DNA from: a virus | Taxonomy: Duplodnaviria; Caudoviricetes | Length of the DNA: 64,000 nucleotides | Reading direction: 5' to 3' (one strand) | Virus record (IMG/VR): IMGVR_UViG_3300047545_000306 | Span: 1 to 64,000 of that record | Shown here: piece by piece, positions 16,467-29,435 of the stretch | Position numbering within the stretch: the stretch's first letter is position 1 | How the letters are laid out: each line of letters starts with the position of its first letter | Notes under the pieces: generated by a model | Database searches by the model: none | The model's input: the letters and a program-made list of their open reading frames with translations, nothing else | Told to the model about the DNA's origin: nothing | Position numbers and translations under genes: made by a program

Positions 16467-16871
16467 CTACTTATGTAAAGCACGTTGCTTGGCTAGGGCA
16501 TCAAAGTCTTTCACCTTTGTGTCACCCATGTATCCCCAAGCATACCCCTTTTCAATCATTTCATTATTGATTGAGTTACCAGAGCCATCTAGGTATACCC
16601 AACCAAGAATGCGACCATACTTCTCAGATGAATCCATCTTCTCAGTCTTAATAACAACGGTCTTGGCAGCCTTGATAGCCTTCTTTAGGTATTCCTTAGA
16701 CTCTAGTCCCAGTGCCTTCTCTGCCTTATCGGTAGTGCGTGACTCTGGGGTATCGATACCAGCCAGACGAACTCGTGAACTAAAGCTAATGTCAAACCCT
16801 AGGTCGATTACAACGTCAATGGTATCTCCATCTACTACGTTGGTTACTTCTTTTACATAATACTCAAACAT
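16467..16871 (-). CDS. thermonuclease (SNase) family nuclease
   Basis: VVDGDTID..RVRLAGIDTPE..KYGRILG..GYA. Confidence 0.92.
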   Translation of the reverse strand: MFEYYVKEVTNVVDGDTIDVVIDLGFDISFSSRVRLAGIDTPESRTTDKAEKALGLESKEYLKKAIKAAKTVVIKTEKMDSSEKYGRILGWVYLDGSGNSINNEMIEKGYAWGYMGDTKVKDFDALAKQRALHK

Positions 16872-16886
16872 ATTATTACTCCATTA

Positions 16887-17345
16887 CTACGATAACAAGC
16901 CAACCAGATCGCTACAAACATAGTTTGGCTTGTAGAAATCGATTGCATCCTGTATGTCTATATAATCTATCTCTGGCATTACCAGGACAGAAGTTGGTCC
17001 AATCTGCTTACCTGGATAGGTCCAGATATGCCCCTGACTGGTTAGGGTAAAATCATCATGTTGGTGCCAAAAATAATTTAGGTGAGGAAAGGTGTTGTTA
17101 AAGAAGTTTAACGCCTCAAAGTTTTTGCAGTGAAACCAGGCAGCATGACCTATTTCAAGAAGAAAACTTTCTGGAATGAATAGGTACTTAGGACCGTCGT
17201 GACCAAAAGATATTTCCTCATTCCTAACCCAGACATCAACCTCTACATCAAAGCCAGACTGGATAGCCTCCATCAAATACTTTGGGCTATTCTCTAGTTC
17301 TGGATCGGAACCTGTTGTGTTTCCACGGTGAGCGATCTTAATCAT
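16887..17345 (-). CDS. GDPD/PLC-like phosphodiesterase-fold protein
   Basis: IAHRGN..EN..GFDVEVDVW..GHD..HCKN. Confidence 0.7.
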   Translation of the reverse strand: MIKIAHRGNTTGSDPELENSPKYLMEAIQSGFDVEVDVWVRNEEISFGHDGPKYLFIPESFLLEIGHAAWFHCKNFEALNFFNNTFPHLNYFWHQHDDFTLTSQGHIWTYPGKQIGPTSVLVMPEIDYIDIQDAIDFYKPNYVCSDLVGLLS

Positions 17346-17674
17346 CTGTCTCTCCTTACCGATATCTTGTCATTAGTAAAATTGGGAAGCTTTACACAAA
17401 CTACCTCGCAGTCTTCGTGAAAGACTGGGTCAGCTATCTCCATTGGTTCTAATATAAACACATCTCCAGGGCATATATCTACCCCCTGAATCGTCATGGA
17501 GCCACGTACGAGAAGGTTTATCTCGTCTAAGTGCTCATGATAGTGCCAATCCCATACTTCCCCAGCCTTGTGGATTTTGAAAGATACTTCTGCACCCTTT
17601 GTTTGATAAGCAGCATTTGGAAAGTTTCCAACATACCAACCACCTATAGAATCGTCTAGCTTCTTTAGTATCAT
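17342..17674 (-). CDS. cupin-domain protein
   Basis: GWYVGNF.P..HYH...DEINLLVRG. Confidence 0.75.
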   Translation of the reverse strand: MILKKLDDSIGGWYVGNFPNAAYQTKGAEVSFKIHKAGEVWDWHYHEHLDEINLLVRGSMTIQGVDICPGDVFILEPMEIADPVFHEDCEVVCVKLPNFTNDKISVRRDR

Positions 17675-18888
17675 AGATCAATGCTCCCCAAAACTTTATC
17701 AACAGCTTTTATAATTGTATCAGAGTAAAAGGTTTTTGCATAGTTTTCTGGCTCTCTTTTGTCAAAAAATATATTTGCATTTGGTTTAATTACTTCTAGG
17801 ATGTCCTCGTGCGGAAAACCGTATGACATTCTTGGTGCAATGTAGATGAACGTGCAGCTATCCTGAACGAATAGGGATTGTAGCTCTGATGCCCCTGCCC
17901 ATACAGCCACGACAGCTGCCTCTGACATGATATCCATCTGCTCCCTAAGACTCATGCCATCGATTGTCAGTATCTCAAATCCTTTAGACTTAAAAAAACC
18001 TTCTATCGCTTCTTCTTCGGAAGACGAAAAGTATCTAAGGTACACGTCCTTGACCCCAGAATTAAATTCTGCTGGATGAAAGGCTGATAGATCTACTCCA
18101 TCTATCCTGCCAGTATTTTCTGCAGTTCTCCAGTCTTTCGACCAAATGACCCCATTTGACTCTAAAAATTTGTACAAAAGATTTGCTTTGTCAAAGAATT
18201 CTCTTTTATGCTTTACGCTAACAAATATTTTTCTATGTGGTTTTTTCTTTTTTCTAATTCCTGCAAAGAAGTTTTTCATTGCTAGAGTTACTGCAAACTT
18301 ATAAGAGTAGGATGCATCATTATCTCCATCTAAAAGACCGCCTGTTAGAAGCCTGTCTACTGCAGAGAATATTTCTGTCTTTATTCCATCTCCCCATAAG
18401 CTTATGGCATATAGATTTTCAACCACCAGGTTTCCGTCACTGGGGAAAAACAAGAAATTCTCATAATCAAAATCAATGGTGTCTAGTAGCTCTGTCACCA
18501 GCTTTGGGTTCCTTGAGTGGTACTTGCAGAATTCTGCAAAGATTAACCTTGGGTGTGTCAGCTCTCCAGTATACATTATCACTGGCTTAAGGTCTGGGAC
18601 TGATTCTTTGATCAACAGGTACTCACCAATGATGTCGTGCATCAGGTGAAAGAACGGTCTCTGCCACTCTATGATATATGCGTTGCCAGACACCTTAACT
18701 ATTGGCTTATGTGGATCATTAATAATGCTTATTCCAGAAGCCTTGTAAAAAAATAGGTCCTCTCCGCCATCCCGATAAGACAACAACCCCCACTCTTCGG
18801 ATCTTTTGAAGTGGTCTGTTTTTATTGGCTCTGCTTTTGTAAATGATATCTTGGATACATCTAAGTGGTAGTTAGTGTCATAGCCCAT
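17671..18888 (-). CDS. glycosyltransferase family 61-like
   Basis: FFHLMHD..RKIFVS..EE...FF...GF..MSLREQ..GA. Confidence 0.7.
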   Translation of the reverse strand: MGYDTNYHLDVSKISFTKAEPIKTDHFKRSEEWGLLSYRDGGEDLFFYKASGISIINDPHKPIVKVSGNAYIIEWQRPFFHLMHDIIGEYLLIKESVPDLKPVIMYTGELTHPRLIFAEFCKYHSRNPKLVTELLDTIDFDYENFLFFPSDGNLVVENLYAISLWGDGIKTEIFSAVDRLLTGGLLDGDNDASYSYKFAVTLAMKNFFAGIRKKKKPHRKIFVSVKHKREFFDKANLLYKFLESNGVIWSKDWRTAENTGRIDGVDLSAFHPAEFNSGVKDVYLRYFSSSEEEAIEGFFKSKGFEILTIDGMSLREQMDIMSEAAVVAVWAGASELQSLFVQDSCTFIYIAPRMSYGFPHEDILEVIKPNANIFFDKREPENYAKTFYSDTIIKAVDKVLGSIDL

Positions 18889-19981
18889 AGGTTCCCCACG
18901 AAACTGATGAAAATCCAGAATCTGTTATGACATTAATTCCAACAGCCCTGTCTCTGTCTGCATCCTGCAACTTATCATTAACCAAGAATCTTTCACCCTT
19001 TGACACATCCATGACCATATAGTCCCAGTGGAGCCCCAACTCTCTAAGCTGCGACTCTACTACTGCCCTATTCACTTCTCTTCTTGCCGTGGTTATAACT
19101 ATTTTGTGACCAGACACGATCCACTCATTGATCTTGTCTAGTACTCCTGGCAGAAGCGTTGGCTTAGAGTCTTCATGGTTTGGGAAATGATGTGCGTGTT
19201 GTAGGATTGTTCCATCCAAATCTAAGAATATTGTCTTTGGCTTTTCTGCATAATACTCATCTATCTTAGATTGATATATCTCTAGATCCCTTGGAGTTCC
19301 AAGAGGAATGTATTGGTTGGCAGGAATGCTGTGAGATATGATCTTCTTGCCATCATTTATTAAATAGTTATATGTCAGAGAGACGTATGACTCCCTGCCG
19401 TCCTTGATGCAATCTGCAACCAAGCTTTCTGCAGACTTAACAAAATCTTTTCCTTGCTTCCAGTAATGGAGTCCAACCAGAGCATTGTCACTAATGGGAT
19501 TCTTTTCAGCTAGGTGTGTGACAAGCCCATTCTGAACTACTGCATAGCTGTGCTTGTGGCTTGATGATGGGTGTACCAAGATGCTGCCATCTATACCATG
19601 AGATCTAGACATTCTTAAAAAGTCTTCTGGGTCCCACTCAAGCCTCTGGTCACAATTGGTAAGGATAAGTTCATCATCATTGTTTATGTAGTCTTTGGCA
19701 ATTAGTGCAGAGAACGATGTTCCAAATTGCTTACCCTTGGCACGTAGCTCAACGTGTCCAGGTGCTACGCTGTGAAGTATCTCTGTCAGCTTCTTGTTAT
19801 GATCTGGATCATCATATTCTCTTGTAATAAAAATGAACCTACCCTGAATCCCTAGGGTCTCTACTGAGTGCTGAATTAGTGTTTTGCCATCTATTTCAAT
19901 TAGTGGCTTTGGAACCTCAAACCCTGCGTCACTAAATCTTGATCCTAGACCTGCCATAGGAATTATTATATTAACTGTCAT
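18878..19981 (-). CDS. sugar nucleotidyltransferase fused to a C-terminal HAD-like domain
   Basis: IIPMAGLGSRF...PKPLI, NCDQ, EK, LGTP.D; then DLDGT..TTAR..NDK. Confidence 0.85.
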   Translation of the reverse strand: MTVNIIIPMAGLGSRFSDAGFEVPKPLIEIDGKTLIQHSVETLGIQGRFIFITREYDDPDHNKKLTEILHSVAPGHVELRAKGKQFGTSFSALIAKDYINNDDELILTNCDQRLEWDPEDFLRMSRSHGIDGSILVHPSSSHKHSYAVVQNGLVTHLAEKNPISDNALVGLHYWKQGKDFVKSAESLVADCIKDGRESYVSLTYNYLINDGKKIISHSIPANQYIPLGTPRDLEIYQSKIDEYYAEKPKTIFLDLDGTILQHAHHFPNHEDSKPTLLPGVLDKINEWIVSGHKIVITTARREVNRAVVESQLRELGLHWDYMVMDVSKGERFLVNDKLQDADRDRAVGINVITDSGFSSVSWGTYGL

Positions 19982-19988
19982 ACTAAAA

Positions 19989-21197
19989 TTATAGCCTATC
20001 TAGGTGCTTTTGTTCTAGCTCTTTGATTATTTGCCTTGCTGAAAACTCTCCTGGATTCTTTCTTTTATCAAACACAATGATTGGATCATCCATCATAGAG
20101 CTAACAACATCTTCGTGGTAGAAGGTATACCCAGAGTTATTTGCTATTAAGATAAATACACCATCATTTTCTAGATACATTGAGTTTAGAGACCCTGCTC
20201 CTGTGATTGTTGCTATGTGCGTACAGCTAGAGAATAGCTCCATCTGATCTTCTAACGGCATCATTGATACCTCCATGATGTCGTAGCCCAGGAAAGCGAA
20301 ATAGTTTTCTATTAGCTTTTCTTCACTCTCCAGCATGTATCTGTGCCTTGCCTCAAAAAGTAGTTCTGCTGGGGTAGCTGGCTTAAACTTATCTAGGTTA
20401 GTCTTAGCTATGCCATTCGGATCGTTAATTAGTGATGGGTTGTTCATTTCCCAGGTTACGCCATTTTCTTCCAAAAACTTAATTAGATCATAATTCTTTT
20501 TAAAAGTCTCAGTTCTCTCTTTTCTGGATATAAAAATCTTTCTTGACCTGGCTTTCCCAGCCTCTTGGTTACGCTTTAGAATAAATTCCTTGAGCTCTCT
20601 TGAAAATAAATAAACCTGCTTGGTTGTTTCAGCCCACCTAATATCCATTGGTAAATCATAATTGGTTTCAGCCATTGAGCTAATGATTCCAGACATGATG
20701 TTGTTACAGGATGTGGTAATGAACGATAACTTTTCAAAAGTTATTTTCTTAAACATACGATAATGAACAATTTCATCTGGACTAACTCCGCACATCTCAA
20801 GAACTTGCGTCTTGTAGTGACTGTTTAGATAGTCTAAGTTGTTGTATGGAAAGTCTCCAACCATTGCTAGTGGCTTTATGTCTGGCAAATATCTTTTAAG
20901 TGCAAGATACTGTCCAAAATTGTCAAATAATGCGTGGAAAAAGGACTGATTTACATCTACCAGATAGACATGACCTGGGACATGCAGCTCCAGCTCTCCA
21001 GAGCCATCGATCTCTATGCCTAGATTCTTAATGGTGAATATTCCAACGTTGTCGTGCTCTACATGGTTGTCAAAGGTGCTAACGTCCCTCTTCTTCCAGT
21101 CATCCGACTCTAGAAAGTCTCTAACTCTTGTTGTCTCTATACTATCGAAGGTAGCTGAGACTAGTGGGATTGGTCCTGGTCTATATCCTGGCTTCAT
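19989..21197 (-). CDS. glycosyltransferase family 61-like (paralog)
   Basis: FFHALFD..RKIFISRK..EE...YF...GY..EDQMELF..GAG. Confidence 0.72.
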   Translation of the reverse strand: MKPGYRPGPIPLVSATFDSIETTRVRDFLESDDWKKRDVSTFDNHVEHDNVGIFTIKNLGIEIDGSGELELHVPGHVYLVDVNQSFFHALFDNFGQYLALKRYLPDIKPLAMVGDFPYNNLDYLNSHYKTQVLEMCGVSPDEIVHYRMFKKITFEKLSFITTSCNNIMSGIISSMAETNYDLPMDIRWAETTKQVYLFSRELKEFILKRNQEAGKARSRKIFISRKERTETFKKNYDLIKFLEENGVTWEMNNPSLINDPNGIAKTNLDKFKPATPAELLFEARHRYMLESEEKLIENYFAFLGYDIMEVSMMPLEDQMELFSSCTHIATITGAGSLNSMYLENDGVFILIANNSGYTFYHEDVVSSMMDDPIIVFDKRKNPGEFSARQIIKELEQKHLDRL

Positions 21198-22384
21198 TAG
21201 TCATTCCAAACCCATACCCTGGCACTGCTGCCAGACTGCCTAATCTTATCTAGGATTTCGTTATAAATATTCCAAGAAAATATGATAATGTCGTCTGGGT
21301 TCTTGCTTAGCATGTCTGCAGTGCTGACGATAGGGATCATTGGTCCTGGGACTATGTGTCCCTGCTTCTCCTTAACATCATCCGCTATTGCCTCTATGTA
21401 CCCTGGCTTAATCTTAGCAAAGTTAAGAGTTATAGTTGACTTAGCAGATGCAGCAAATCCACAGATAACGTTTCCAGCTAAGTAAAGGTTTGCCACCTTT
21501 TGACGGAACCTATCTATCTTAGATGAGATTCTATCTTGTGTAATCCCCCAAGCGGTTTCAGACAGAAGTCCGTCAGATAGCTCCTTGGCTATGTGCTCTG
21601 CCACGTGTGCCTGGACCTGCTCTGATTTTGACAACCAGTATCTGTTAGATCCACCCTGCGTGTCTACCCAGTCAAGACCGAATAGCTTCATGTCGTTCTT
21701 GCTTGCCAGCTTAGATACAGCCATTGCAGATAGGTATGAATAATGTTCGTGGAAGATTACATCGAAGTGGTCATGGTTAAGAATGTTCATTATGGTAGGG
21801 TTCTCTATAGTAACGACAGTGTTTCTGTTCGATAGGATTGAGATGCCCTCCATAAAGCTCTGAATGTCTGGAGTGTGTGCCATGACGTTGTTTGCGACGA
21901 TCCACCTTGGATACCCCTTCTTCTCAAGGATTTGTCTTGCAATGTCAGCGTTAAAGAATTCTGTAATCACTGGAACGCCAGAGCAAATGGCATACATAGA
22001 AATGTTTTTGGCTGGGTCAACGCCCAGCACGTCAACCCCTTGTGCTGCCAAATATTTCAGGAGATATCCGTCATTGCTAGCGATCTCAAGAACCCAGTCG
22101 TCAGCCGATACGTTTGGAAGTATGTGCTTATTAGCAAACATCTGTGCATACTCAACATAAGACTTGCTAGTAGAGGTTCTCCAGTTGTAGGTGCTGTACA
22201 GCTCCTCTGGTGACATGTCTAGCGATATCTGTCCTAGACCACAAGACTTGCACACAAGCATCTTAGTCTCGTACTCGTCATATGAATCGTTGACGCTGTT
22301 TAGGAAAGCACCAGCAACAGGAAGGTTGCCAAGATCAATTGCAGCAAATAGGTTATTGCTATCACACGCACGACACTTCATCAT
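21197..22384 (-). CDS. NDP-sugar C-methyltransferase
   Basis: CRAC..DLG..P..CKSCGLGQ zinc site, EIASNDG, NVMAH, FHEH.SYLS, GGS.R, FAASAK; ATGA overlap with rmlB. Confidence 0.88.
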   Translation of the reverse strand: MMKCRACDSNNLFAAIDLGNLPVAGAFLNSVNDSYDEYETKMLVCKSCGLGQISLDMSPEELYSTYNWRTSTSKSYVEYAQMFANKHILPNVSADDWVLEIASNDGYLLKYLAAQGVDVLGVDPAKNISMYAICSGVPVITEFFNADIARQILEKKGYPRWIVANNVMAHTPDIQSFMEGISILSNRNTVVTIENPTIMNILNHDHFDVIFHEHYSYLSAMAVSKLASKNDMKLFGLDWVDTQGGSNRYWLSKSEQVQAHVAEHIAKELSDGLLSETAWGITQDRISSKIDRFRQKVANLYLAGNVICGFAASAKSTITLNFAKIKPGYIEAIADDVKEKQGHIVPGPMIPIVSTADMLSKNPDDIIIFSWNIYNEILDKIRQSGSSARVWVWND

Positions 22385-23385
22385 AGCCACTCCAAATTGT
22401 TTAGGTACCACATAACGGTACTGTCTAAGGATTGCTTCAGGTCGTAGTCTGGTGTCCATCCCAACGATCTTAGCTTTGAGTCATCTAGTGCGTACGAAGG
22501 ATCGTATCCTGGTCTAGATATACTAGAGTCCTTGAGGTTATACCACAAACCTGTGCCCATGATTTCAGATATCATCTCTGCCCATTGTAGGTTGGTAAAG
22601 TGATCATCTCCAGCAATGTTAAAACGCTCTGGCTTATTAGAGTCTGCTGGTAGCAACGGCTCAACTGTTTTCAAAATGTGAACAATGGCTGATGCCTTGT
22701 TGCCAGCATATATCCAGTGGCGAGAACCAATCTTGCCACCATCATATGTGTGAATATCTACAGGCTCACTGTTTAACAATCTCTTGATAACCATTGGAGT
22801 AAACTTCTCTACGCCCTGGGCTTCTCCAATGATATTCATTGTGTTGGTAATGATTAGCGGAATGTTGTAGGTACGCCAATACGCAAAGGCAATGCTTTCT
22901 TGTGCAGCCTTGCTAGCACTGTACGGATTGCTTGGTAGGTGTGGGTCCCACTCAATTGACTTTCTATTCTGGTACGGTCCATATACCTCATCAGTAGATA
23001 TCTGAATAAATTTCTCTAGCTTAGCCTCACGTGCCCAGTCTAGCAGGTTGCAGATTAGTGCTACGTTATTAATAATAAATGGTGTAGGAGAGTTTACGCT
23101 TCTATCTACATGGCTTTCGCTAGCAGAATTAATAACATAATCAATCTTACCAATCTTCTTAGATGTGACTGAGGATATGGGTGACGATAGATCGCAAAGA
23201 ATTACCTTTACCCTGGCAAGTTCTGGATCTGATTCCTCGGTTGCAAAGGTAATCCTATCCTGAATTCCATGGTGTGTGAATGTCGATAGACATACGACTT
23301 CCCAGTCTGTGTGCTTTAGTATGTGCTTTAGTATGTGTGCACCCACAAAGCCTGAAGCTCCTGTCAGGAGTACTCTCTTAGTCAT
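22381..23385 (-). CDS. rmlB: dTDP-glucose 4,6-dehydratase
   Basis: TGASGFVG, ESHVDRS, STDEVYG, PSNPYSASKA. Confidence 0.9.
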   Translation of the reverse strand: MTKRVLLTGASGFVGAHILKHILKHTDWEVVCLSTFTHHGIQDRITFATEESDPELARVKVILCDLSSPISSVTSKKIGKIDYVINSASESHVDRSVNSPTPFIINNVALICNLLDWAREAKLEKFIQISTDEVYGPYQNRKSIEWDPHLPSNPYSASKAAQESIAFAYWRTYNIPLIITNTMNIIGEAQGVEKFTPMVIKRLLNSEPVDIHTYDGGKIGSRHWIYAGNKASAIVHILKTVEPLLPADSNKPERFNIAGDDHFTNLQWAEMISEIMGTGLWYNLKDSSISRPGYDPSYALDDSKLRSLGWTPDYDLKQSLDSTVMWYLNNLEWL

Positions 23386-23608
23386 CGCCCTGTAACCTAT
23401 TTTCTACGAGTCTTTCTCGTTCATCAGTGATGTTGTATGCAAACTTCATCATCTTTTCATATCCGCTTGGGCTGTCCATAATCTTATTGTAGTGATGATT
23501 GCAGAACACAAGGTCTCCAGTAATTCCTGTTACCTGAACATATGCTTGTGCTCCACAACTGTCACAACGATCTAAAGCAGTAAGTACCCACTCAACTGTC
23601 TCTACCAT
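23378..23608 (-). CDS. small zinc-binding actinobacterial-type protein
   Basis: LTALDRCDSCGAQAYV..L.FCNHH..DER. Confidence 0.7.
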   Translation of the reverse strand: MVETVEWVLTALDRCDSCGAQAYVQVTGITGDLVFCNHHYNKIMDSPSGYEKMMKFAYNITDERERLVENRLQGDD

Positions 23609-23784
23609 TACTTATCCTTGCTGTAGAATCCGCTACCCTTAAATTGAATGCCAATGCCACCGATGACCTGGTTCATTCTGTACCCACACTTTTCACACAT
23701 GTGCTCTGGTGATGGGTCGTGAATGCTTCTTGTTTCTACTAACTTAGTTTCACATTCTCTACAAACGTATTCGTATACTGGCAT
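23608..23784 (-). CDS. FmdB-family zinc-ribbon protein
   Basis: MPVYEYVCREC..CEKCG..IQFKGSGFYSKD (58 aa, not in the ORF track). Confidence 0.85.
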   Translation of the reverse strand: MPVYEYVCRECETKLVETRSIHDPSPEHMCEKCGYRMNQVIGGIGIQFKGSGFYSKDK

Positions 23785-23987
23785 TACTTTACTTTCTTTC
23801 CAAACTTACTCCAAAGTCGTTCATGCACGAAGTATCCAACGGCTTCCCAGCCAATGTAAAGCAGTGCACCCCAGGTTGCATACTCCCATTCACCAGTAAA
23901 AAGGTAAATGACTCCTGCAACGCCAACCAAATGGAAGGCTTCCCAGCTCAGCGTCTTAAATAATGTTTTCTTTTTTGAGTCTGACAT
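23784..23987 (-). CDS. DUF2061-like membrane protein
   Basis: DS.KK.LFKTLSW..YFVHERLW. Confidence 0.75.
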   Translation of the reverse strand: MSDSKKKTLFKTLSWEAFHLVGVAGVIYLFTGEWEYATWGALLYIGWEAVGYFVHERLWSKFGKKVK

Positions 23988-24811
23988 TATCCCAGCAGCT
24001 TCCAGGTTAGTGGACCAACTGATCCATCTGGCTTTGTAATTTGCTTATGCTTATTCTGGAAGATTACAACTGCGTTGTGAGTCTCATCGTCAAAGGTTCC
24101 AGATGGTGCTACGCCAAGTTTGTGCTGCAAGTACTTGACAGCATCTCCAGTTGAGCCCTTCTTTAGCTCTCCAAGTAGTGCAGGCTTCACAGGCTTTACG
24201 GCTGCCTTGGTTGCCACACGCTCTACTTCAACTGCTGCTGCTTGTGCCTCGTCGTGAGTTGGTGCTGCTGCTACTGGGTCTCTATCGGTTGCAACAACTG
24301 CTGCTGAAGCGATAGAAGCCTCTTGTGCGATCAGTGCTTTGAAGAATGCGATAGGTTCAATATAGTTCTTTCCGTTTGCATCCCAGATGTGTTCCTTGCC
24401 AAGACGAAGCTCCCAGTGTAAGTGCTTACCAGTAGACATACCAGTAGTACCCATCTTGCCGAGAGGAGTTCCAGCGGTGATCTTGTCACCCTTTGCCACC
24501 TTTAGAGAGCCCTTTTGCATGTGTGCAAATAGAGATGTGTACATCTTGCCATTAATCTTCATTAGTAGGATTACGTAGTACCCAAACCCACCAACAGATC
24601 CGTCTGGATTTTTTGACTTCGATGGTCCTGCGTAGATAACCTTGGCATCAAATGGTGCCTCAATCCAGCACGGCTCGTGAGCTGACCAGATGTCTGTGCC
24701 GTTGTGGTGCTTCTTTTGCTTAGTAACAGGGTGAATTCTCATCCCCATCAGAGATGTAGCCTTGAAATCTTTTCCAAGCTTTCCATCTATTGGAAATTGT
24801 GCCTTTGCCAT
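23987..24811 (-). CDS. endolysin: M23 peptidase plus peptidoglycan-binding domain
   Basis: HNGTD..FAH..GTTG.STG.HLHWE; LKKGSTG.AV..LQ..DG.VGP.TW. Confidence 0.88.
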   Translation of the reverse strand: MAKAQFPIDGKLGKDFKATSLMGMRIHPVTKQKKHHNGTDIWSAHEPCWIEAPFDAKVIYAGPSKSKNPDGSVGGFGYYVILLMKINGKMYTSLFAHMQKGSLKVAKGDKITAGTPLGKMGTTGMSTGKHLHWELRLGKEHIWDANGKNYIEPIAFFKALIAQEASIASAAVVATDRDPVAAAPTHDEAQAAAVEVERVATKAAVKPVKPALLGELKKGSTGDAVKYLQHKLGVAPSGTFDDETHNAVVIFQNKHKQITKPDGSVGPLTWKLLG

Positions 24812-24831
24812 ATAAATGACCTCCTATTTTA

Positions 24832-26244
24832 TTAACGACATATCTTCATGCCGTAAGTCTTTTCCCATTCAAGTATATCAGACTCATCATTCAGCAGAGG
24901 CTGACCCTTAATATTAAGGCTAGTATTTAGCAGTATTGGTATACCTGTTCTATTATAGAACATTTCCAGTAGTTTGTAAAGACCTGGATGCTGATCTTTA
25001 TTGACAGTCTGCACTCTAGAAGTACCGTCCTGGTGGACGACTGAGGGAATTAGGTCTGGCTTAAGGCATTTAGGTGTATATTGCATGTAAGGGCTTGTAT
25101 AGTCCATATCGAACCATTCAGAGGCATGCTCTTCCATTACCACAGGGGCAAATGGTCTGAAGAGCTCACGCTTCTTTATTCTATTAACCTTATCCTTAAT
25201 GTTTGGATCTCTTGGATCTGCAAGGATACTTCTATTTCCCAATGCTCTTGGTCCATACTCAGCTCTTCCTGTAGCTACCGCTGCGACTCCAGAAGACATT
25301 ATGCTATCAAATATCTCCTGAACTGGATACTCACCACCAAGGTCGTGTCCCAGATAGGGACCCTTCCAGTCAACATGCTTTCCGTATAATGCGGCAGCGG
25401 CTCCCAATGAGCTTCCTGCATCTCCTGGATTAGGCATTATCCAAACATCTGGGAAGATATCCCAAAGCATTGTGTTAGCCTTGCTATTCAAGGCACAGCC
25501 ACCCATAAATACTAGGTTAGGGCTATCAAGCTCCTGCCTAACTATGTACATAAAGTCCCACAATCTATCTTCATAAACTCTTTGGACTGCAGCCGCTATA
25601 TGAAATTTATCATTTTCAGTAATGTCCTGATCCCAGTCAATGATGCCCTTGTGGAAGTTATACTTTTGCTTATAGACTGATTGGAAGTATTCTGATACCT
25701 TTTCAAAATAAAGATCTGGATCTCCGTAGGCTGCCATCCCCATCATGATATACTCTTCTTGATTTGGCATCAGTCCAATTAGCTCTGTAAAGGCAGAATA
25801 GAACAGCCCAAAGCTGAATGGATAGTTCCATTTCTTATGTAGCGTTATCTTGTCTCCGTTGCCAACCCAGACGCTAGAGGTAGTAAACTCTCCTATTGCA
25901 TCCAACACTACAATTGCTGCATCCTTAAAAGGACTGGTATAATACCCTGCAGCTGCATGAGAGTAGTGGTGTGAAAATGATTTGTCAATATGTCTGGTTG
26001 GCTTCCAGTCTGCAAGACCTCCGTGCAGTGCTAGCCGAAATCTCTTGAGCAATGGCTTTTCATAGTATGCGACTACATCTGGAGTTCCATAGCTGATTGC
26101 ATCATTAATTAGATCATCATTCACATACCAGTCATTCTTTTCTTTGCTATACCTCTCTGCGTGACCAGCGAATAGAATCTTTCTGCCGTCAAGCAGGCAG
26201 ACTGCTGCATCGTGAGACGTTTCATTAATGCCCAAGACCTTCAT
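24832..26244 (-). CDS. carbamoyltransferase (NodU/CmcH/TobZ family)
   Basis: HDAA..ERYS..HHYSHAA..MGMAAYG..GGCALN..GDAG..EYGPRALGNRS..FRPFAP..DGTSRVQTV..NTSLN. Confidence 0.95.
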   Translation of the reverse strand: MKVLGINETSHDAAVCLLDGRKILFAGHAERYSKEKNDWYVNDDLINDAISYGTPDVVAYYEKPLLKRFRLALHGGLADWKPTRHIDKSFSHHYSHAAAGYYTSPFKDAAIVVLDAIGEFTTSSVWVGNGDKITLHKKWNYPFSFGLFYSAFTELIGLMPNQEEYIMMGMAAYGDPDLYFEKVSEYFQSVYKQKYNFHKGIIDWDQDITENDKFHIAAAVQRVYEDRLWDFMYIVRQELDSPNLVFMGGCALNSKANTMLWDIFPDVWIMPNPGDAGSSLGAAAALYGKHVDWKGPYLGHDLGGEYPVQEIFDSIMSSGVAAVATGRAEYGPRALGNRSILADPRDPNIKDKVNRIKKRELFRPFAPVVMEEHASEWFDMDYTSPYMQYTPKCLKPDLIPSVVHQDGTSRVQTVNKDQHPGLYKLLEMFYNRTGIPILLNTSLNIKGQPLLNDESDILEWEKTYGMKICR

Positions 26245-26304
26245 CAGTATGTATACTTTCTTGGCTTTAGCTTTTTCCTATTCTTAATCTTCCAGAAAAA
26301 GAAT

Positions 26305-27114
26305 CTAATTTTTGTTATCATCGTTACTCCTATATATATTGTATGCAAATTCTGCATAAAAATCATGCATCGCTACCCCTGGATGAGCCTCATCTAGAGC
26401 ATACTCAAAATAGTCCTTGAGCTGATGCTTGCCGTTTTTCTTGGCAAAGTCATACATGTGGCGGTGCATCCTATCCATGTCGTACTGATAGAAATCATCA
26501 AGGTCTCTTCTGAAATCAGCTACCTCAGATCTTATAGACATATCATCCCAAGTAAATGTTATCAGTTTTATGCCTCTTTGTCTACACATCTTGGCTAGCT
26601 GCTGGTACTTTCCGAATATCAGCAAGCCTGTTGCGTTCCTTGTGCATTCATCGTCTGACTCTGATCCAGATCTTAGGTATCGATCTTCACGATCTAGGTC
26701 TGGCAGATTTAAAAATATCACGTCTGGATCTCCGAAGGTACCGATATATGTGAGTATCTGGTTACAAATGCCTATCACTGTTCCGCCAGGCTGAGCAATA
26801 TTAAAGTATCCAGACAGACTCTCTTCTCTAGATATTCTGTCGTATACAAGCTTGCTCCATACAAAATCTAATGGCATCCCTTCGCCTGCAGTTACAGAAC
26901 AACCTGCAAATAGAACATGCTTGCCGTTGTGAATCCTTGTTAGGTCATCCGATCTAGTTCCATAGTTGTTAAACTGATAGAAGGTGCTAGGATCTAGCCC
27001 CAACTTTTCAATAGACTCAAAGGTTTTATTCAGGCTATCGTCGCAGAAAGATATGGAAACCATGTTGTCTTTTATTGAGTGGTACTCTGGCACCCCCATA
27101 ATATCTCTTATCAT
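26305..27114 (-). CDS. SGNH/GDSL-like protein (paralog of 6637-7452)
   Basis: HNGKHVLFAGCSVTAGEG..DEAHPG..HDFYAEF. Confidence 0.6.
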   Translation of the reverse strand: MIRDIMGVPEYHSIKDNMVSISFCDDSLNKTFESIEKLGLDPSTFYQFNNYGTRSDDLTRIHNGKHVLFAGCSVTAGEGMPLDFVWSKLVYDRISREESLSGYFNIAQPGGTVIGICNQILTYIGTFGDPDVIFLNLPDLDREDRYLRSGSESDDECTRNATGLLIFGKYQQLAKMCRQRGIKLITFTWDDMSIRSEVADFRRDLDDFYQYDMDRMHRHMYDFAKKNGKHQLKDYFEYALDEAHPGVAMHDFYAEFAYNIYRSNDDNKN

Positions 27115-27980
27115 GCGATCCCCTTAGCATTATTGGTAAATCTTTGCCTTTGCACATTACTTGTAGCACTGACCACCTCAAGCTTGTTTGGATCATAGTC
27201 AACATCATTAGTTGGATACGGTAGCTTCAGCAGCCTTTCCTTTATACCGTGCAGCTCTAGAAAATCTGGCAGGAAGTTTTCGTATAGCAGATACTCATCC
27301 CTGTTTACTCCACGATCTGGATATAACTCATCCACCATCAGGTTATAGTTGTGTTCTAGAGAGAATGGCGAGTAATACTTTTCTAAATTTCTGGTTCCTA
27401 GATCTGTATAGAGTGATTTTGGAATACAGCACACCTCAATGCCGTGCCTAAAGAACTCCAGGCTACATAGTTCACTATAACCATAGTACTTTAGACTAAT
27501 GGGATATTCGATTCTATTCATAAGTTCCAGTCTACCAAACAGAGAATGTCTGCTTACCCAGCCAGTTATTTCAAATGAGTCCGATGTATTAGTGGCTACG
27601 TCGAAGCTGAACAGGTCTTTGTAGGATATAGAAACTTGACCATTGCCAGAAAAGACAATGTCTCTGTCAGCTGCGTAATCGATCAGTGCTGTGTCCCAGC
27701 CTTTCGATAGCGTTGCTTCATCTGACAATAGTAGAACGTACTCTGCCTGTACGCTTTGCAAAAACTCGTTATGAAAATATCCCAGACCATACTGGTGGTC
27801 CCATGGCACGTGTCTGTAGGTGATGCGATCATCATACGCAAACGAATCAATCCTGTTAAGCGAGTTCTGATCTATTACGACAATCTCAAAATCACTATCA
27901 GTATTGTCAATGATAGAACGGACTGACTGCTTTAGGTTTTTACCCTTGTAGGAGTAGAGCAGTATGCTAAGCTTTCTCAT
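27111..27980 (-). CDS. divergent GT-A fold (GT2/GT60-like) glycosyltransferase
   Basis: LSILLYSYK..EIVVIDQ..EYVLLLSDE..KGWD; DxD degenerate. Confidence 0.55.
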   Translation of the reverse strand: MRKLSILLYSYKGKNLKQSVRSIIDNTDSDFEIVVIDQNSLNRIDSFAYDDRITYRHVPWDHQYGLGYFHNEFLQSVQAEYVLLLSDEATLSKGWDTALIDYAADRDIVFSGNGQVSISYKDLFSFDVATNTSDSFEITGWVSRHSLFGRLELMNRIEYPISLKYYGYSELCSLEFFRHGIEVCCIPKSLYTDLGTRNLEKYYSPFSLEHNYNLMVDELYPDRGVNRDEYLLYENFLPDFLELHGIKERLLKLPYPTNDVDYDPNKLEVVSATSNVQRQRFTNNAKGIA

Positions 27981-28719
27981 TCTTGCCTACCCCCATAAAA
28001 ATTTTCTTTATCCAGGTTGTTCTTTTGTAATGTGCATAGATAGATGATCGTCTATTCTCTGCAAGTAACTCCTGGTAGTCGTGTGTCTCTTCACTATCAT
28101 CTATCTCCATCTGCCAGTCATCACGCTTGAACGGTATCATCTGGAATATAGGAGTGCCCTTGGGAATTGTCCCACGAAAGTTTCTTTTTAGGAAGAACGT
28201 TATTAATACTGACAAACCCCAGACATCTGATTCTACTATCCCAGACTGAATAAAGAATGGTAGGTCATACCTGTTCATGGGATGGGTTATGAGAACTGAG
28301 TAACCTGGTGGTGTCTCATAGTACCAGTTCATCTTGATCCCATAGTGAATTGGATGACAGCCTTCTGGTACTGGCAAGTCTAGGTCTGGTCTAACATCTG
28401 CTAGGAGCATGTCTGCATTCCAAGATAGTGTTGGTTTTCCATGCTCATCTAAAGAGACATGTAGGTCATCCTCTAGCAAATACATGTATCCAGCAGTCAT
28501 AGCATCCAGAAATGGTGGACACATCTTTGTAGAAACATTTGCAGAATCTGTACCTGCAGTATTTTCTGGATAAAGACTTTTTTCGCTGTTACTATCTATA
28601 TGCTTTGCCAGGCTTTTGTACCATTCTGGAACATGCTTGGAAGCTGGTTCTGGTGGAATTAAAAAATTTTTATAGTCAATCTTTGCAGGTATAAATTTAA
28701 ACTTTAAAAAGTTTTTCAC
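27967..28719 (-). CDS. DUF6065/dUTPase-like beta-fold protein
   Basis: TKMCPPFLDAM..GY..TPPGYS..HPMN..G.V.SD..IPKGTPIFQMIPFKR. Confidence 0.6.
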   Translation of the reverse strand: MKNFLKFKFIPAKIDYKNFLIPPEPASKHVPEWYKSLAKHIDSNSEKSLYPENTAGTDSANVSTKMCPPFLDAMTAGYMYLLEDDLHVSLDEHGKPTLSWNADMLLADVRPDLDLPVPEGCHPIHYGIKMNWYYETPPGYSVLITHPMNRYDLPFFIQSGIVESDVWGLSVLITFFLKRNFRGTIPKGTPIFQMIPFKRDDWQMEIDDSEETHDYQELLAENRRSSIYAHYKRTTWIKKIFMGVGKNEKA

Positions 28720-29435
28720 TTATACTCTTTCTTTGATCTAAACTTATTCTTATAAGCATTTGAAAACACACTTCGTAGAGACAGCCTTTGCTTCTTTAGT
28801 ATTGGAAGTGCCTGAGCTTCTGTCAGCACTTCTGATGTCCACTCTTCTCTCTTAAATGGTATTACCTGCACTAGTGGAGTGCCCTGCTTAATGATCCCAT
28901 CGAAGTCCTTCTCCACAAGGAACGATAGATGACCCTCTGAAACAAAGGCATCTGTGTCAATAATTGCACTGAATGCAAACAGTGGGCTAGATCTGTGGAA
29001 TGGATTTGCGAACATTGTGCTGTAGCCTTCTGGTGTACCTACAGACCAGAATGGTTGAATACGCAACAGGTCCTTGTGATATCTATTTAGATCAATCGGG
29101 TATTCACTGTACTGCTCTGCAGCATGTGTTGAGAATAGGTCTCCCTTAAACTGTCTGATGTGCTCTGGAATAGAATATGTAAGCTTGTTTGGATCAGTAG
29201 CGTTAACATAAATGTCGCATGGGGCTGCTAAAACATACCCTGCTACTGTGATATCAAACACTGGCATGCACTTCTTAATTGTGGTTGCCACTACACCAGC
29301 ATCTAGATTAGTCTTACCTGGAGTCTGACTTGGCTGCTCTCTGTACCATTCTGGCATGTGTTTTGCAGCAGGCTTCGGAGCTTCTGCGAAGTCAGACGTT
29401 ACGTCTGTGAATGGGTGAAACTTGATAACTGGCAT
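28716..29435 (-). CDS. DUF6065/dUTPase-like protein (paralog)
   Basis: TIKKCMPVFD..GY..TPEGYS..IIDTD..IKQGTPLVQVIPFKR. Confidence 0.6.
   Translation of the reverse strand: MPVIKFHPFTDVTSDFAEAPKPAAKHMPEWYREQPSQTPGKTNLDAGVVATTIKKCMPVFDITVAGYVLAAPCDIYVNATDPNKLTYSIPEHIRQFKGDLFSTHAAEQYSEYPIDLNRYHKDLLRIQPFWSVGTPEGYSTMFANPFHRSSPLFAFSAIIDTDAFVSEGHLSFLVEKDFDGIIKQGTPLVQVIPFKREEWTSEVLTEAQALPILKKQRLSLRSVFSNAYKNKFRSKKEYK

What the first reader, a model, noticed from the sequence alone, without database searches (positions are those of the whole stretch)
16887..26244. Pathway for a C-methyl-branched, possibly carbamoylated deoxysugar
Seen: a tightly coupled run rmlB - C-methyltransferase - GT61 - nucleotidyltransferase/HAD - GT61 - cupin - GDPD-like, with a carbamoyltransferase ~1.4 kb upstream. 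Established: this enzyme logic (activation, 4,6-dehydration, epimerisation, C-methylation, O-carbamoylation) builds antibiotic sugars such as carbamoyl-noviose. Inference: the phage makes an unusual sugar for virion, host-surface or DNA decoration. No ketoreductase is visible here, so it may come from the host or elsewhere.
Basis: partly seen in the sequence, partly recalled or inferred. Interest (0 to 1): 0.75.

Follow-up and report, generated by a model that had tools for sequence, protein, structure and literature searches.

The report
Phage sugar operon: two mobile cassettes
An uncultured lake phage carries a tightly packed set of sugar-building genes, including a rare enzyme that adds a methyl branch to a sugar's carbon skeleton, but the set is two independent gene cassettes joined together and lacks the finishing enzymes, which the likely host bacteria encode.

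Summary
On the minus strand, 23385-16887, overlapping genes encode an RmlB-like 4,6-dehydratase, a TylC3/TcaB9-family sugar C-methyltransferase, two paralogous GT61 glycosyltransferases, a nucleotidyltransferase-HAD fusion, a small cupin and a 152-aa GDPD-like protein. A carbamoyltransferase lies 1.45 kb upstream.

The single-pathway, noviose-like reading is only partly supported. The run is a composite of two cassettes.
- Cassette A is the dehydratase plus C-methyltransferase. The dehydratase is adjacent in 13 of 18 close phage relatives, without GT61, nucleotidyltransferase, cupin or GDPD directly following it.
- Cassette B is HAD + nucleotidyltransferase + mini-GDPD, often with GT61 and sometimes the cupin. 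It is a largely virus-borne module also found in Synechococcus myoviruses, and almost always lacks A.

The cupin resembles minimal phosphomannose isomerases, not RmlC. The carbamoyltransferase sits beyond a lysis cassette and occurs independently of A.

The phage record has no 3,5-epimerase and no second SDR. The phage methyltransferase clade groups with Nanopelagicaceae (acI) homologues. There the gene is followed by an RmlC-type epimerase and a reductase-sized SDR, in CDP-glucose-based operons.

This is a new variant of the known phage glycan-gene clusters. The acceptor (phage proteins versus host envelope) and the role of the mini-GDPD remain open. The scan had not noted this on other DNA.

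The parts
22381..23385 (-). Cassette A, gene 1: RmlB-like NDP-hexose 4,6-dehydratase (334 aa). Nucleotide specificity unknown.
   Evidence: Pfam PF01370 1.5e-42. TIGR01181 222.9 bits, below the 365.1 cut-off. 10 of the 12 PDB hits at E<=1e-20 are dTDP-glucose 4,6-dehydratases. GxxGxxG, T-D-E and YxxxK motifs are present in the translation.
21197..22384 (-). Cassette A, gene 2: TylC3/TcaB9/MtmC-family NDP-hexose C-methyltransferase (395 aa from the ATG that overlaps the SDR stop).
   Evidence: PF08421, PF13489 and PF08484. PDB 4rv9 3.5e-48, 3ndi 2.4e-42. Four Cys and the H-E-H stretch are invariant in 14 sequences. Forms one clade with acI homologues.
19989..21197 (-). GT61-family glycosyltransferase a (402 aa).
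   Evidence: PF04577 36.9 bits, cut-off 27. Paralogue of GT61b. No hydrophobic segment.
18878..19981 (-). Cassette B: sugar-phosphate nucleotidyltransferase (residues 1-240) fused to a HAD phosphatase/mutase-type domain (residues 245-330).
   Evidence: PDB 4evw 1.4e-17. phrog_3980 1.3e-58. rmlA_long 41 bits and HAD-IIIA 29 bits, both below cut-off. G-x-G-x-R and DxDGT motifs. HAD-NT or NT-HAD fusions make up 54 of 72 NT-bearing ORFs near mini-GDPD genes.
17671..18888 (-). GT61-family glycosyltransferase b (405 aa).
   Evidence: PF04577 26.5 bits, just below the 27 cut-off. 28% identical to GT61a, E 3e-32.
17342..17674 (-). Cassette B: 110-aa single-domain cupin, closest to minimal phosphomannose isomerases.
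   Evidence: Cupin motif 1 conserved. Model pLDDT 90.8. Foldseek 7zvm E 3.6e-6, TM 0.66-0.69. Profile hit to 7zvm at 0.0047. Fused to a HAD-IA domain in L014 and L015.
16887..17345 (-). Cassette B: 152-aa compact GDPD-like phosphodiesterase ('mini-GDPD'), a largely virus-borne family.
   Evidence: HRG..EN..ExD..GHD invariant. PDB profile hit 7e0v at 4e-4. pLDDT 94.9. Foldseek top hits are GDPDs at probability 0.97-1.0. 7779 relatives among 8000 candidates. Atlas clusters are 89-100% viral.
24832..26244 (-). NodU/Nol-type carbamoyltransferase. A separately conserved tailoring gene, not linked to cassette A.
   Evidence: PF16861 4.5e-53 and PF02543 1.2e-44. phrog_1601 1.5e-99. Distribution.
23378..24811 (-). 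Intervening genes: M23 peptidase with PG-binding domain (23987-24811), DUF2061 small membrane-type protein (23784-23987), DUF7455 (23378-23608). A probable lysis cassette plus a conserved small gene that marks the insertion site of cassette A.
   Evidence: Pfam. PHROG endolysin/peptidase hits. DUF7455..SNase adjacency without A in L007 and L009-L012.
16467..16871 (-). Staphylococcal-nuclease homologue. The conserved downstream flank of the insertion site.
   Evidence: PF00565 1.5e-18. 70-89% identical in relatives.
26305..30057 (-). Upstream glyco-genes of the same island: a 269-aa protein that looks SGNH-like by eye (paralogue at 6637-7452), a GT2, two phrog_7084 paralogues and a 221-aa unknown.
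   Evidence: No PDB sequence match for the 269-aa protein or phrog_7084a.

Best explanation
The stretch is a cytoplasmic glycan-building operon of a roughly 100-kb lake phage. Its likely host is a low-GC freshwater actinobacterium of the Nanopelagicaceae/acI type. The operon is two separately mobile cassettes that happen to be joined here.

Cassette A is an RmlB-like 4,6-dehydratase followed by a TylC3/TcaB9-type SAM-dependent methyltransferase. It should turn an NDP-glucose into an NDP-4-keto-6-deoxy-C-methyl-hexose. C-3 is the most likely position, by analogy with the solved relatives. The phage has neither the 3,5-epimerase nor the 4-ketoreductase needed to finish such a sugar. These sit directly after the nearest cellular homologues of the methyltransferase in Ca. 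Planktophila/acI genomes. The most likely course is therefore that host enzymes finish the sugar, and that the phage gene was taken from that lineage.

Cassette B is a nucleotidyltransferase-HAD fusion, a phosphomannose-isomerase-like cupin, a compact GDPD-like phosphodiesterase and two GT61 transferases. It is an independent, largely virus-borne donor-supply-and-transfer module. The proposed logic is: isomerase makes a hexose-6-phosphate, HAD acts as mutase or phosphatase, the nucleotidyltransferase activates the sugar, and GT61 transfers it. The job of the phosphodiesterase is unknown.

The carbamoyltransferase belongs to a third, separately inherited tailoring set.

Shown here: gene identities, motifs, folds, the separate distribution of the cassettes, the absence of finishing enzymes in the phage, and the phylogenetic link to acI.

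Inferred: the chemical steps, the nucleotide carrier, completion by the host, and the acceptor. I think the acceptor is most likely phage-made proteins such as virion or fibre proteins (about 0.45), ahead of host envelope glycans (about 0.35).
For: Identities.

Cassette A distribution:
- Among 18 close relatives (47-62% identity), the dehydratase is adjacent in 13.
- In none of the 18 is the methyltransferase directly followed on the same strand by GT61, NT, cupin and GDPD.
- A GT61 gene lies within 7 kb in 5 of the 18. The NT-cupin-GDPD set lies nearby in 2 of the 18, on the opposite strand.
- L007 and L009-L012 keep the DUF7455..SNase flanks without A.

Cassette B distribution:
- NT+cupin+GDPD occurs in 12 of 12 loci found with the NT query.
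- Among 80 loci chosen by the mini-GDPD, NT is within 6 kb in 70, HAD in 62, GT61 in 54, cupin in 32, an SDR in 13 and a C-methyltransferase in 1.
- HAD is fused to NT in either order (34 HAD-NT, 18 NT-HAD, 2 HAD-NT-HAD ORFs). HAD is fused to the cupin in L014 and L015.
- B occurs in Synechococcus myoviruses S-SM2 and B23.

Finishing enzymes:
- The phage record has one extended SDR and no PF00908 hit.

Host link:
- The best four cellular homologues are two Ca. Planktophila MAGs, acI isolate IMCC26103 and a Mycobacterium MAG, at 39-43% identity.
- In all four the methyltransferase is followed by an RmlC-type epimerase, and an SDR of 284-317 aa comes next (on the opposite strand in the Mycobacterium MAG).
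- A CDP-glucose 4,6-dehydratase scores above cut-off in two of them. A G1P cytidylyltransferase is present in two: above cut-off in the Mycobacterium MAG, and at 284 bits, just under the 300.25 cut-off, in Planktophila locus L164.
- In the tree, the 10 lake-phage sequences form one clade (100/100). They join the 3 acI sequences (100/97) and then Mycobacterium (100/99).

Acceptor:
- No enzyme in the cluster has a hydrophobic segment.
- The record has no priming phosphoglycosyl transferase and no Wzx flippase.
- The same genome has two P4H-like oxygenases, a PF11397 transferase and collagen-like GXY proteins.
- In 4 of 41 distant viral loci the methyltransferase homologue lies next to capsid-module genes, and in 21 of 41 it lies next to GT2, GT4 or other glycosyltransferases (counted by eye).
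Against: - The phage dehydratase is of the dTDP-glucose type (222.9 bits, against 52.8 for the CDP-glucose model). It is only 24-25% identical to the dehydratases of the acI operons, which are CDP-glucose based. If the carriers differ, host enzymes may not accept the phage product.
- None of 3 acI-type genomes has an RmlB or RmlD above the curated cut-off. A dTDP-rhamnose route that could finish a dTDP sugar is therefore not evident there.
- 5 of 18 close relatives have the methyltransferase without the dehydratase in the held stretch.
- The record is only 88% complete, so a missing reductase or epimerase could lie in the unseen part.
- The joint operon in this phage, with overlapping reading frames, is what one would expect if B's nucleotidyltransferase did feed A here. 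Separate inheritance elsewhere does not exclude that.
- The roles given to the cupin and the HAD rest on weak similarities (24% identity; Foldseek E 3.6e-6). RuBisCO-like proteins take the place between cupin and GDPD in L011, L012 and L016, which does not fit a simple hexose route.
- Nothing links any GT to a named acceptor.
- The nearest cellular homologues sit in envelope-polysaccharide-like clusters with GT4, GT2 and an ABC transporter. This favours a host-surface target.
Confidence: 0.45

Rival explanations
1. First reader's reading. The whole run plus the carbamoyltransferase is one linear pathway. The nucleotidyltransferase activates glucose-1-phosphate and the dehydratase makes the 4-keto-6-deoxy sugar. 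The cupin epimerises it, the methyltransferase branches it and the carbamoyltransferase caps it. The GT61s then transfer a noviose-like sugar.
For: All genes are co-directional and overlapping. The nucleotidyltransferase's best NCBIfam model is rmlA_long, though only at 41 bits. The same enzyme classes build noviose (recalled knowledge, no call).
Against: The parts are not co-conserved. C-methyltransferase occurs in 1 of 80 cassette-B loci, and NT-cupin-GDPD in 2 of 18 cassette-A loci. The cupin always travels with NT and GDPD, has no PF00908 match and resembles phosphomannose isomerases. The carbamoyltransferase lies beyond a lysis cassette and occurs without A. No reductase is present.
Confidence: 0.12
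2. Auxiliary-metabolic reading. Cassette A tops up or re-installs the early, committed steps of the host's own C-methyl-deoxyhexose route. The finished sugar goes into the host's envelope polysaccharide through host transferases. This changes the cell surface during infection, for example to block superinfection or to stop progeny re-adsorbing to debris. The phage GTs act on host glycoconjugates.
For: The phage methyltransferase clade groups with acI homologues that sit in polysaccharide-type clusters with GT4, GT2, UDP-glucose dehydrogenase and an ABC transporter. The phage lacks the finishing enzymes. Iyer et al. 2021 (PMC7824862, section 3.4.10 read) propose surface-polysaccharide decoration for comparable cyanophage clusters.
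Against: The carrier mismatch between a dTDP-type phage dehydratase and CDP-type host operons. The phage brings at least six soluble GTs of its own but no lipid-carrier priming enzyme or flippase. Methyltransferase homologues lie next to capsid-module genes in 4 of 41 distant viral loci.
Confidence: 0.3
3. The products are not for glycoconjugates. Either the genes decorate phage DNA, or they make a small glycosylated secondary metabolite.
For: A nuclease gene flanks the operon. Iyer et al. 2021 raise a secondary-metabolite role for cyanophage clusters with carbamoyltransferases, halogenase, 2OG oxygenases, cupins and HAD. A tryptophan-halogenase gene lies near cassette B in L011.
Against: No hydroxymethyl-pyrimidine or other base-modification genes were seen among the window ORFs I scanned. 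A ThyX thymidylate synthase is present. GT61, GT8, GT2 and PF11397 are not known DNA glycosyltransferase families (recalled). No aglycone-forming enzymes were seen in the window.
Confidence: 0.08

Closest known systems
TylC3 / TcaB9 / MtmC / KijD1 NDP-hexose C-3-methyltransferases of actinomycete antibiotic sugar pathways (PDB 3ndi, 4rv9, 5t64)
   Same: Same three-domain architecture, zinc-binding four-Cys N-domain, SAM fold and H-E-H stretch. Full-length alignment with E values of 1e-42 to 1e-48.
   Different: The gene is phage-borne and about 30% identical or less by eye in the printed alignment. It is paired only with a 4,6-dehydratase. No 2,3-dehydratase, aminotransferase, epimerase or reductase is present. 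Its nearest cellular kin are in acI envelope-type clusters, not antibiotic clusters. The position methylated is untested.
CDP-glucose-based C-methyl-deoxyhexose operons of Ca. Planktophila / acI and a Mycobacterium MAG (found here: L161-L164)
   Same: The nearest cellular homologues of the methyltransferase (39-43% identity) form one well-supported clade with the phage genes.
   Different: The cellular operons are more complete. An RmlC-type epimerase follows the C-methyltransferase in all four. An SDR of 284-317 aa comes next, on the opposite strand in the Mycobacterium MAG. A CDP-glucose 4,6-dehydratase is present in two and a cytidylyltransferase in two. The phage has a dTDP-type dehydratase that is only 24-25% identical, and nothing downstream.
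Cyanophage 'LPS'/sugar gene clusters (S-SM2, P-SSM2 type), described by Iyer et al. 2021, PMC7824862, section 3.4.10
   Same: Epimerase/dehydratases, cupins, nucleotidyltransferases, HAD phosphatases, many GT families and carbamoyltransferases occur together. S-SM2 and B23 carry the same NT/HAD/mini-GDPD(/GT61) module.
   Different: Those are myoviruses of cyanobacteria. No TylC3-type methyltransferase is named in the section I read, and the mini-GDPD is annotated only as hypothetical there. Function is untested in both.
Type II phosphomannose isomerase / GDP-mannose pyrophosphorylase enzymes and minimal archaeal PMIs (PDB 7zvm, 7zvy)
   Same: A nucleotidyltransferase working with a small metal-binding cupin. 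The cupin's best fold and profile matches are these PMIs.
   Different: Only 23-24% identity. Separate polypeptides. Always accompanied by a GDPD-like protein and a HAD domain. Activity untested.
Glycerophosphodiester phosphodiesterases (GDPD, PF03009; e.g. PDB 7e0v, 1zcc, 1o1z)
   Same: The N-terminal catalytic pattern (His-Arg, Glu-Asn, Glu-x-Asp, His-Asp) and a barrel-like fold.
   Different: 150 aa instead of about 230-250. No Pfam match. TM-scores are only 0.44-0.55. The family is largely viral. Substrate unknown.
   Same: It uses a 4,6-dehydratase, a C-methyltransferase and a carbamoyltransferase.
   Different: The epimerase and ketoreductase of such a pathway are absent from this phage record. 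Here the carbamoyltransferase is inherited separately.
Mycobacteriophage virion glycosylation (recalled; seen here only in search listings and one abstract)
   Same: Actinophages that carry their own glycosyltransferases, thought to act on virion proteins.
   Different: Those cassettes sit by the capsid genes and, as far as I recall, include no sugar-nucleotide synthesis. Here the genes lie in the non-structural region and include sugar-modifying enzymes.

Membership tests
TylC3/TcaB9-type NDP-hexose C-methyltransferase | Three-domain architecture: Zn-binding N-domain (PF08421), SAM methyltransferase fold, C-terminal domain (PF08484) | tested here: met
   All three are above Pfam cut-offs. Full-length alignment to MtmC, TcaB9 and KijD1.
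TylC3/TcaB9-type NDP-hexose C-methyltransferase | Four zinc-ligand cysteines and the conserved His-Glu-His catalytic stretch (residue roles recalled from the TcaB9 literature) | tested here: met
   C4, C7, C45, C48, H212 and H214 are invariant in the 14-sequence alignment A3. They align with MtmC.
TylC3/TcaB9-type NDP-hexose C-methyltransferase | SAM-dependent C-methylation of an NDP-4-keto sugar | not testable with these tools
   Needs an enzyme assay.
dTDP-glucose 4,6-dehydratase (RmlB) | Extended-SDR fold with GxxGxxG, catalytic Thr-Asp-Glu and YxxxK (motif roles recalled) | tested here: met
   The motifs are present in the translation. 10 of the 12 PDB hits at E<=1e-20 are RmlB enzymes.
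dTDP-glucose 4,6-dehydratase (RmlB) | Score above the curated equivalog cut-off (TIGR01181, 365.1 bits) | tested here: not met
   222.9 bits. The homologue in L002 scores 223.8 bits. It is filed as RmlB-like, carrier unknown.
Complete 6-deoxy-C-methyl-hexose pathway (activation, dehydration, methylation, epimerisation, reduction) | RmlC-type 3,5-epimerase | tested here: not met
   PF00908 has no hit at E<=0.1 in the 103-kb record, while the control rings in 11 of 14 genomes.
Complete 6-deoxy-C-methyl-hexose pathway (activation, dehydration, methylation, epimerisation, reduction) | 4-ketoreductase (a second SDR) | tested here: not met
   PF01370 and PF04321 each hit only the dehydratase gene. 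The record is 88% complete.
Glycosyltransferase family 61 (PF04577) | Pfam gathering score | tested here: met
   GT61a scores 36.9 against 27. GT61b scores 26.5, just under, but is a clear paralogue at E 3e-32. Only the C-terminal part of the profile is matched.
Glycerophosphodiester phosphodiesterase (GDPD, PF03009) | Pfam family match over a full TIM barrel | tested here: not met
   No Pfam or NCBIfam hit. The protein has only 152 aa.
Glycerophosphodiester phosphodiesterase (GDPD, PF03009) | Catalytic His/Arg/Glu/Asp/His pattern and GDPD-like fold | tested here: met
   The columns are invariant. Profile hit to 7e0v at 4e-4 over residues 3-52. Foldseek top 12 hits are nearly all GDPDs, at probability 0.94-1.0 but E about 3e-3.
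   No PF00908 hit. The best fold hits are phosphomannose isomerases. An 'RmlC-like cupin' of unknown function appears only at rank 48.
NodU/CmcH/TobZ-type O-carbamoyltransferase | Both Carbam_trans_N and Carbam_trans_C domains | tested here: met
   153.6 and 179.7 bits. The NodU equivalog is not met, at 157.9 against 1000.
Sugar-1-phosphate nucleotidyltransferase (RmlA/GalU/ManC class) | Family score above cut-off and the G-x-G-x-R signature | tested here: inconclusive
   The signature is present. PDB 4evw 1.4e-17. All Pfam and NCBIfam scores are below cut-off. Substrate and nucleotide are unknown.

The most novel reading that the evidence does not exclude
The HAD + nucleotidyltransferase + mini-GDPD (+ GT61, sometimes a cupin or a RuBisCO-like protein) set is an uncharacterised, largely virus-specific pathway. 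It is spread through aquatic phages of unrelated hosts (cyanobacteria, freshwater actinobacteria) and builds and attaches a unit not yet described for viruses. Because a phosphodiesterase-fold enzyme is its most constant member, that unit could be phosphodiester-linked. In this phage it has been welded to a host-derived C-methyl-branching cassette, so the phage would display a branched-chain deoxysugar on its own proteins. I know of no earlier case of a branched-chain sugar made under viral control.
Probability: 0.2. Interest if true: 0.8.

Novelty: new variant of a known kind. Interest (0 to 1): 0.58.

Why it matters
Phage-encoded glycan genes are known, for example the cyanophage 'LPS' clusters and actinophage virion glycosylation. 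Three things here go beyond that.

1. A TylC3-type sugar C-methyltransferase is a stable gene of a lake-phage lineage. I found 61 viral loci and at least 120 close relatives in metagenomes. My two literature searches found no report of such an enzyme in a phage.

2. The gene's phylogeny ties these uncultured phages to Nanopelagicaceae. It also shows that this abundant freshwater lineage has CDP-based C-methyl-deoxyhexose operons. This gives a concrete host-phage surface-chemistry link that can be tested with the acI cultures now available.

3. The compact GDPD-like protein defines a large, unannotated, mostly viral family. I estimate about 2100 stretches in IMG/VR, and 7779 proteins among the 8000 candidates scored. 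It has a fixed gene partnership whose chemistry is unknown.

If the acceptor is the virion, this bears on how aquatic phages shield or target their particles. If the acceptor is the host envelope, it bears on superinfection exclusion in the most abundant lake bacteria.

Tried and rejected
- Megablast of 16000-27000 against GenBank phages gave no match.
- A tblastn of the C-methyltransferase against cultured or deposited phages gave only 7 records at 34% identity or less.
- Pattern scans for relatives of GT61a found none, either in viral contigs or in JGI metagenome contigs. I could not test whether the composite operon is conserved in near relatives.
- PDB sequence searches for the 269-aa protein, phrog_7084a and GT61a gave nothing useful.
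- Promoter and terminator scans were no better than shuffles: 38 against 37.5 and 11 against 10.1. Operon structure therefore rests on gene overlaps only.
- Our-findings look-ups by sequence and by words returned nothing.
- Literature searches for phage RuBisCO-like proteins with NT and cupin, and for cyanophage 'phosphoheptose isomerase', gave nothing bearing on the module.
- A heptose (GmhB/HddC-like) route for cassette B was considered. It is not adopted because no GmhA or kinase is present here. The 'phosphoheptose isomerase' labels in S-SM2 turned out to be small HAD-like proteins.
- A methionine-salvage-like chemistry was considered, because RLP, class II aldolase, HAD and cupin co-occur in variants. 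It is left as an unexplained resemblance.
- A compatible-solute (glycosyl-glycerol) role for GDPD + NT + GT + HAD was considered. It is not adopted because GT61 is not a known synthase family for these (recalled).
- DNA modification was rejected for lack of any supporting gene.

Full report
**Setting.** The window is the first 64 kb of a 103,150-bp IMG/VR virus record judged 88% complete. Nearly all genes lie on the minus strand. The DnaE-type polymerase is 55% identical to those of Streptomyces phages such as Wakanda and BillNye. A WhiB gene is present, and G+C is about 42%. This points to a phage of a low-GC actinobacterium.

**Observation.**
- The SDR at 22381-23385 is RmlB-like. TIGR01181 scores 222.9 bits, below the 365.1 cut-off. 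Of the 12 PDB sequences at E<=1e-20, 10 are dTDP-glucose 4,6-dehydratases. Its translation has the glycine-rich NAD motif, the Thr-Asp-Glu triad and YxxxK (the roles of these motifs are recalled).
- The next gene has the three domains of the TylC3/TcaB9 family. It aligns end to end with MtmC (3.5e-48), KijD1 and TcaB9. Its true start is probably the ATG at 22384, which overlaps the SDR stop codon.
- Two paralogous GT61 genes flank a nucleotidyltransferase-HAD fusion.
  - The 110-aa protein carries cupin motif 1 and folds as a cupin.
  - The 152-aa protein keeps the GDPD catalytic pattern, matches GDPD 7e0v by profile at 4e-4, and gives a confident model (pLDDT 94.9). Its best Foldseek hits are GDPDs, though at modest scores: E about 3e-3 and TM 0.44-0.55.
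- Gene spacing from DUF7455 to the GDPD-like gene is -8, -4, -1, +7, -11, -4, -4 bases.
- The carbamoyltransferase is at 24832-26244. An M23/PG-binding peptidase, DUF2061 and DUF7455 separate it from the run.

**The run is a composite.** I fetched relatives in three ways.

1. With the methyltransferase:
   - Among 18 close viral loci (47-62% identity), the RmlB-like SDR is adjacent in 13: L004, L101-L109 and L113-L115. It is absent from the held stretch in 5: L110-L112, L116 and L117.
   - In the common layout the order is DUF7455 - SDR - methyltransferase - nuclease - ... - WhiB. No GT61, nucleotidyltransferase, cupin or GDPD follows the methyltransferase.
   - GT61 lies within 7 kb in 5 of 18. 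The NT-cupin-GDPD set lies nearby in 2 of 18, on the other strand. The carbamoyltransferase lies within 7 kb in 7 of 18.
   - The arrangement of the window occurs in none of the 18.
   - Related phages L007 and L009-L012 have DUF7455 and the nuclease without the pair. The pair therefore behaves as a two-gene insert.

2. With the nucleotidyltransferase:
   - All 12 loci hold NT, cupin and the GDPD-like gene together.
   - None of the 12 has the SDR/methyltransferase pair.

3. With the GDPD-like protein:
   - About 2100 stretches in IMG/VR are estimated to hold a match. The best 80 were examined.
   - Within 6 kb, NT occurs in 70, a HAD domain in 62, GT61 in 54, the cupin in 32, an SDR in 13, a RuBisCO-like protein in 4, a methyltransferase in 1 and a carbamoyltransferase in 1.
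   - Three of the 10 loci without NT are cut within 700 bases upstream of the gene.
   - HAD is fused to NT in either order: 34 HAD-NT, 18 NT-HAD and 2 HAD-NT-HAD ORFs, against 18 NT alone. HAD is fused to the cupin in L014 and L015.

The family of the 152-aa protein is large and mostly viral. It has 7779 members at E<=0.001 among the 8000 candidates scored, none with a Pfam domain among the 120 listed. Its Atlas clusters are 89-100% viral. Among deposited phages it occurs only in 17 Synechococcus myovirus records. In S-SM2 and B23 it again sits beside NT, HAD and, in S-SM2, GT61-type genes.

**What the parts probably do.**

Cassette A has the first two committed steps of a C-methyl-branched 6-deoxyhexose route.
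- The rest of the route is missing. The record holds one extended SDR and no RmlC-type epimerase.
- The nearest cellular homologues of the methyltransferase are two Ca. Planktophila MAGs, the acI isolate IMCC26103 and a Mycobacterium MAG, at 39-43% identity. All other kept hits are at 36% or less.
- In all four the methyltransferase is followed by an RmlC-type epimerase, and an SDR of 284-317 aa comes next. That SDR is on the opposite strand in the Mycobacterium MAG.
- Two of them also have a glucose-1-phosphate cytidylyltransferase. It scores above cut-off in the Mycobacterium MAG, and 284 bits, just under the 300.25 cut-off, in L164. Two have a CDP-glucose 4,6-dehydratase above cut-off.
- I built a maximum-likelihood tree of 57 sequences. 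Eight of the 64 loci offered were dropped by a length filter or for lack of a full ORF. The 10 lake-phage sequences form one clade (100/100). That clade joins the three acI sequences (100/97) and then the Mycobacterium sequence (100/99).

This supports an actinobacterial, acI-type origin of the phage gene and an acI-type host. It also makes host completion of the sugar plausible.

Against a simple hand-over:
- The phage dehydratase is of the dTDP-glucose type and only 24-25% identical to the acI dehydratases.
- None of the three acI-type genomes has an RmlB or RmlD above cut-off.

The nucleotide carrier is therefore unresolved.

Cassette B is best read as a donor-supply-and-transfer unit.
- The cupin's best matches, both by profile and by fold (7zvm/7zvy, E 3.6e-6, TM 0.66-0.69, rmsd about 2.2 A), are the minimal phosphomannose isomerases of Thermococcus.
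- In L013 the HAD slot is taken by a eukaryote-type phosphomannomutase homologue (PF03332). In L014 and L015 it is taken by a beta-phosphoglucomutase-like HAD.
- The weaker PDB matches of the NT include mannose-1-phosphate guanylyltransferases.
- An isomerase - mutase - nucleotidyltransferase - GT61 chain from fructose-6-phosphate is thus a coherent inference. It rests on weak similarities.
- It leaves the most constant member, the GDPD-like enzyme, without a role.
- Variants with a RuBisCO-like protein (L011, L012, L016) or a class II aldolase (S-SM2) in the same slot suggest other substrates.

**Acceptor.**
- None of the cluster enzymes has a hydrophobic segment.
- The record has no PF02397 or PF00953 priming transferase and no Wzx-type flippase.
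- The genome also carries two GT8 genes, a GT2, a PF11397 transferase and two P4H-like 2OG oxygenases.
- It carries collagen-like GXY proteins near its far end, and a secreted Pro/Thr-rich protein at 32821-34836.
- I examined 41 distant viral loci with a methyltransferase homologue. By my own count of the table, glycosyltransferases are among the four nearest genes in 21 of them, and capsid-module genes in 4: L126, L130, L146 and L157.
- I therefore lean towards phage-made proteins as acceptors. The acI context of the nearest homologues (polysaccharide-type clusters with an ABC transporter) keeps a host-envelope target close behind.
- Iyer et al. 2021 (PMC7824862; I read section 3.4.10) describe comparable cyanophage clusters. 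They propose either surface-polysaccharide decoration or a secondary metabolite.

**Carbamoyltransferase.** It is a NodU/Nol-type enzyme. In relatives it is flanked by paralogues of the 269-aa protein, which looks SGNH-like by eye but has no database support. It occurs in L005, L011 and L012 without cassette A. Nothing ties it to the C-methyl sugar.

**Novelty.** This kind of thing, phage glycan-gene clusters, is known. A phage-borne TylC3-type methyltransferase was not found in print by two searches. The library searched does not cover most subscription journals, and I opened no supplements. The mini-GDPD/HAD/NT module is visible in deposited cyanophage genomes only as 'hypothetical' genes. 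I rate the finding a new variant of a known kind, of moderate to good interest.

Noticed in passing
L011:8985-10223, L012:8991-10229, L016:5020-6225; also L033, L046, L081, L092: RuBisCO-like proteins (PF00016, 401-412 aa) sit between the cupin and the mini-GDPD in some phage versions of cassette B. They take the slot that a HAD domain fills elsewhere. This is a phage-borne form-IV-type RuBisCO homologue in a sugar-nucleotide context.
   Followed up: partly
window 32821-34836 (-): A 671-aa protein with an N-terminal signal-like peptide, two long Pro/Thr/Glu-rich linkers and a Gly/Ser-rich tail. It has no Pfam family and is a candidate secreted or surface glycoprotein of the phage.
   Followed up: no
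genome 99847-100545 and 100563-101489 (-), beyond the window: Two proteins with collagen-like G-X-Y runs rich in Pro, in the tail-fibre end of the genome. They are possible substrates for the two P4H-like 2OG oxygenases (window 7878-8558, 41785-42543) and for the glycosyltransferases.
   Followed up: no
window 26305-27114 and 6637-7452 (-); three copies in L005: Paralogous proteins of about 270 aa with no family hit. By eye they show an SGNH-hydrolase-like first block and a D-x-x-H block near the end. In relatives they flank the carbamoyltransferase.
   Followed up: partly
window 5104-6694 (+): Two adjacent GT8 glycosyltransferase genes are among the very few plus-strand genes of the window.
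   Followed up: no
L011:12795-14342; L005:7062-7772: A tryptophan-halogenase homologue (PF04820, 3e-101) and a tetrapyrrole-methylase-family gene lie beside the glyco-genes in related phages. The halogenase recalls the cyanophage cluster described by Iyer et al. 2021.
   Followed up: no
L126, L130, L146, L157: In unrelated viral contigs, distant homologues of the C-methyltransferase sit with GT2 genes directly beside major-capsid, prohead-protease or SU10-adaptor genes.
   Followed up: partly
L017 (Synechococcus phage S-SM2) 6693-7004 and 8334-8663: The two small genes annotated 'phosphoheptose isomerase' match only a PNKP-type HAD phosphatase profile, and weakly. The annotation looks wrong.
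   Followed up: partly
L113, L114: In these two relatives the gene order is methyltransferase then dehydratase, the reverse of the window.
   Followed up: no
window 30842-31636 (-): A 264-aa Ser/Thr-rich protein with a signal-like N-terminus and no family hit.
   Followed up: no
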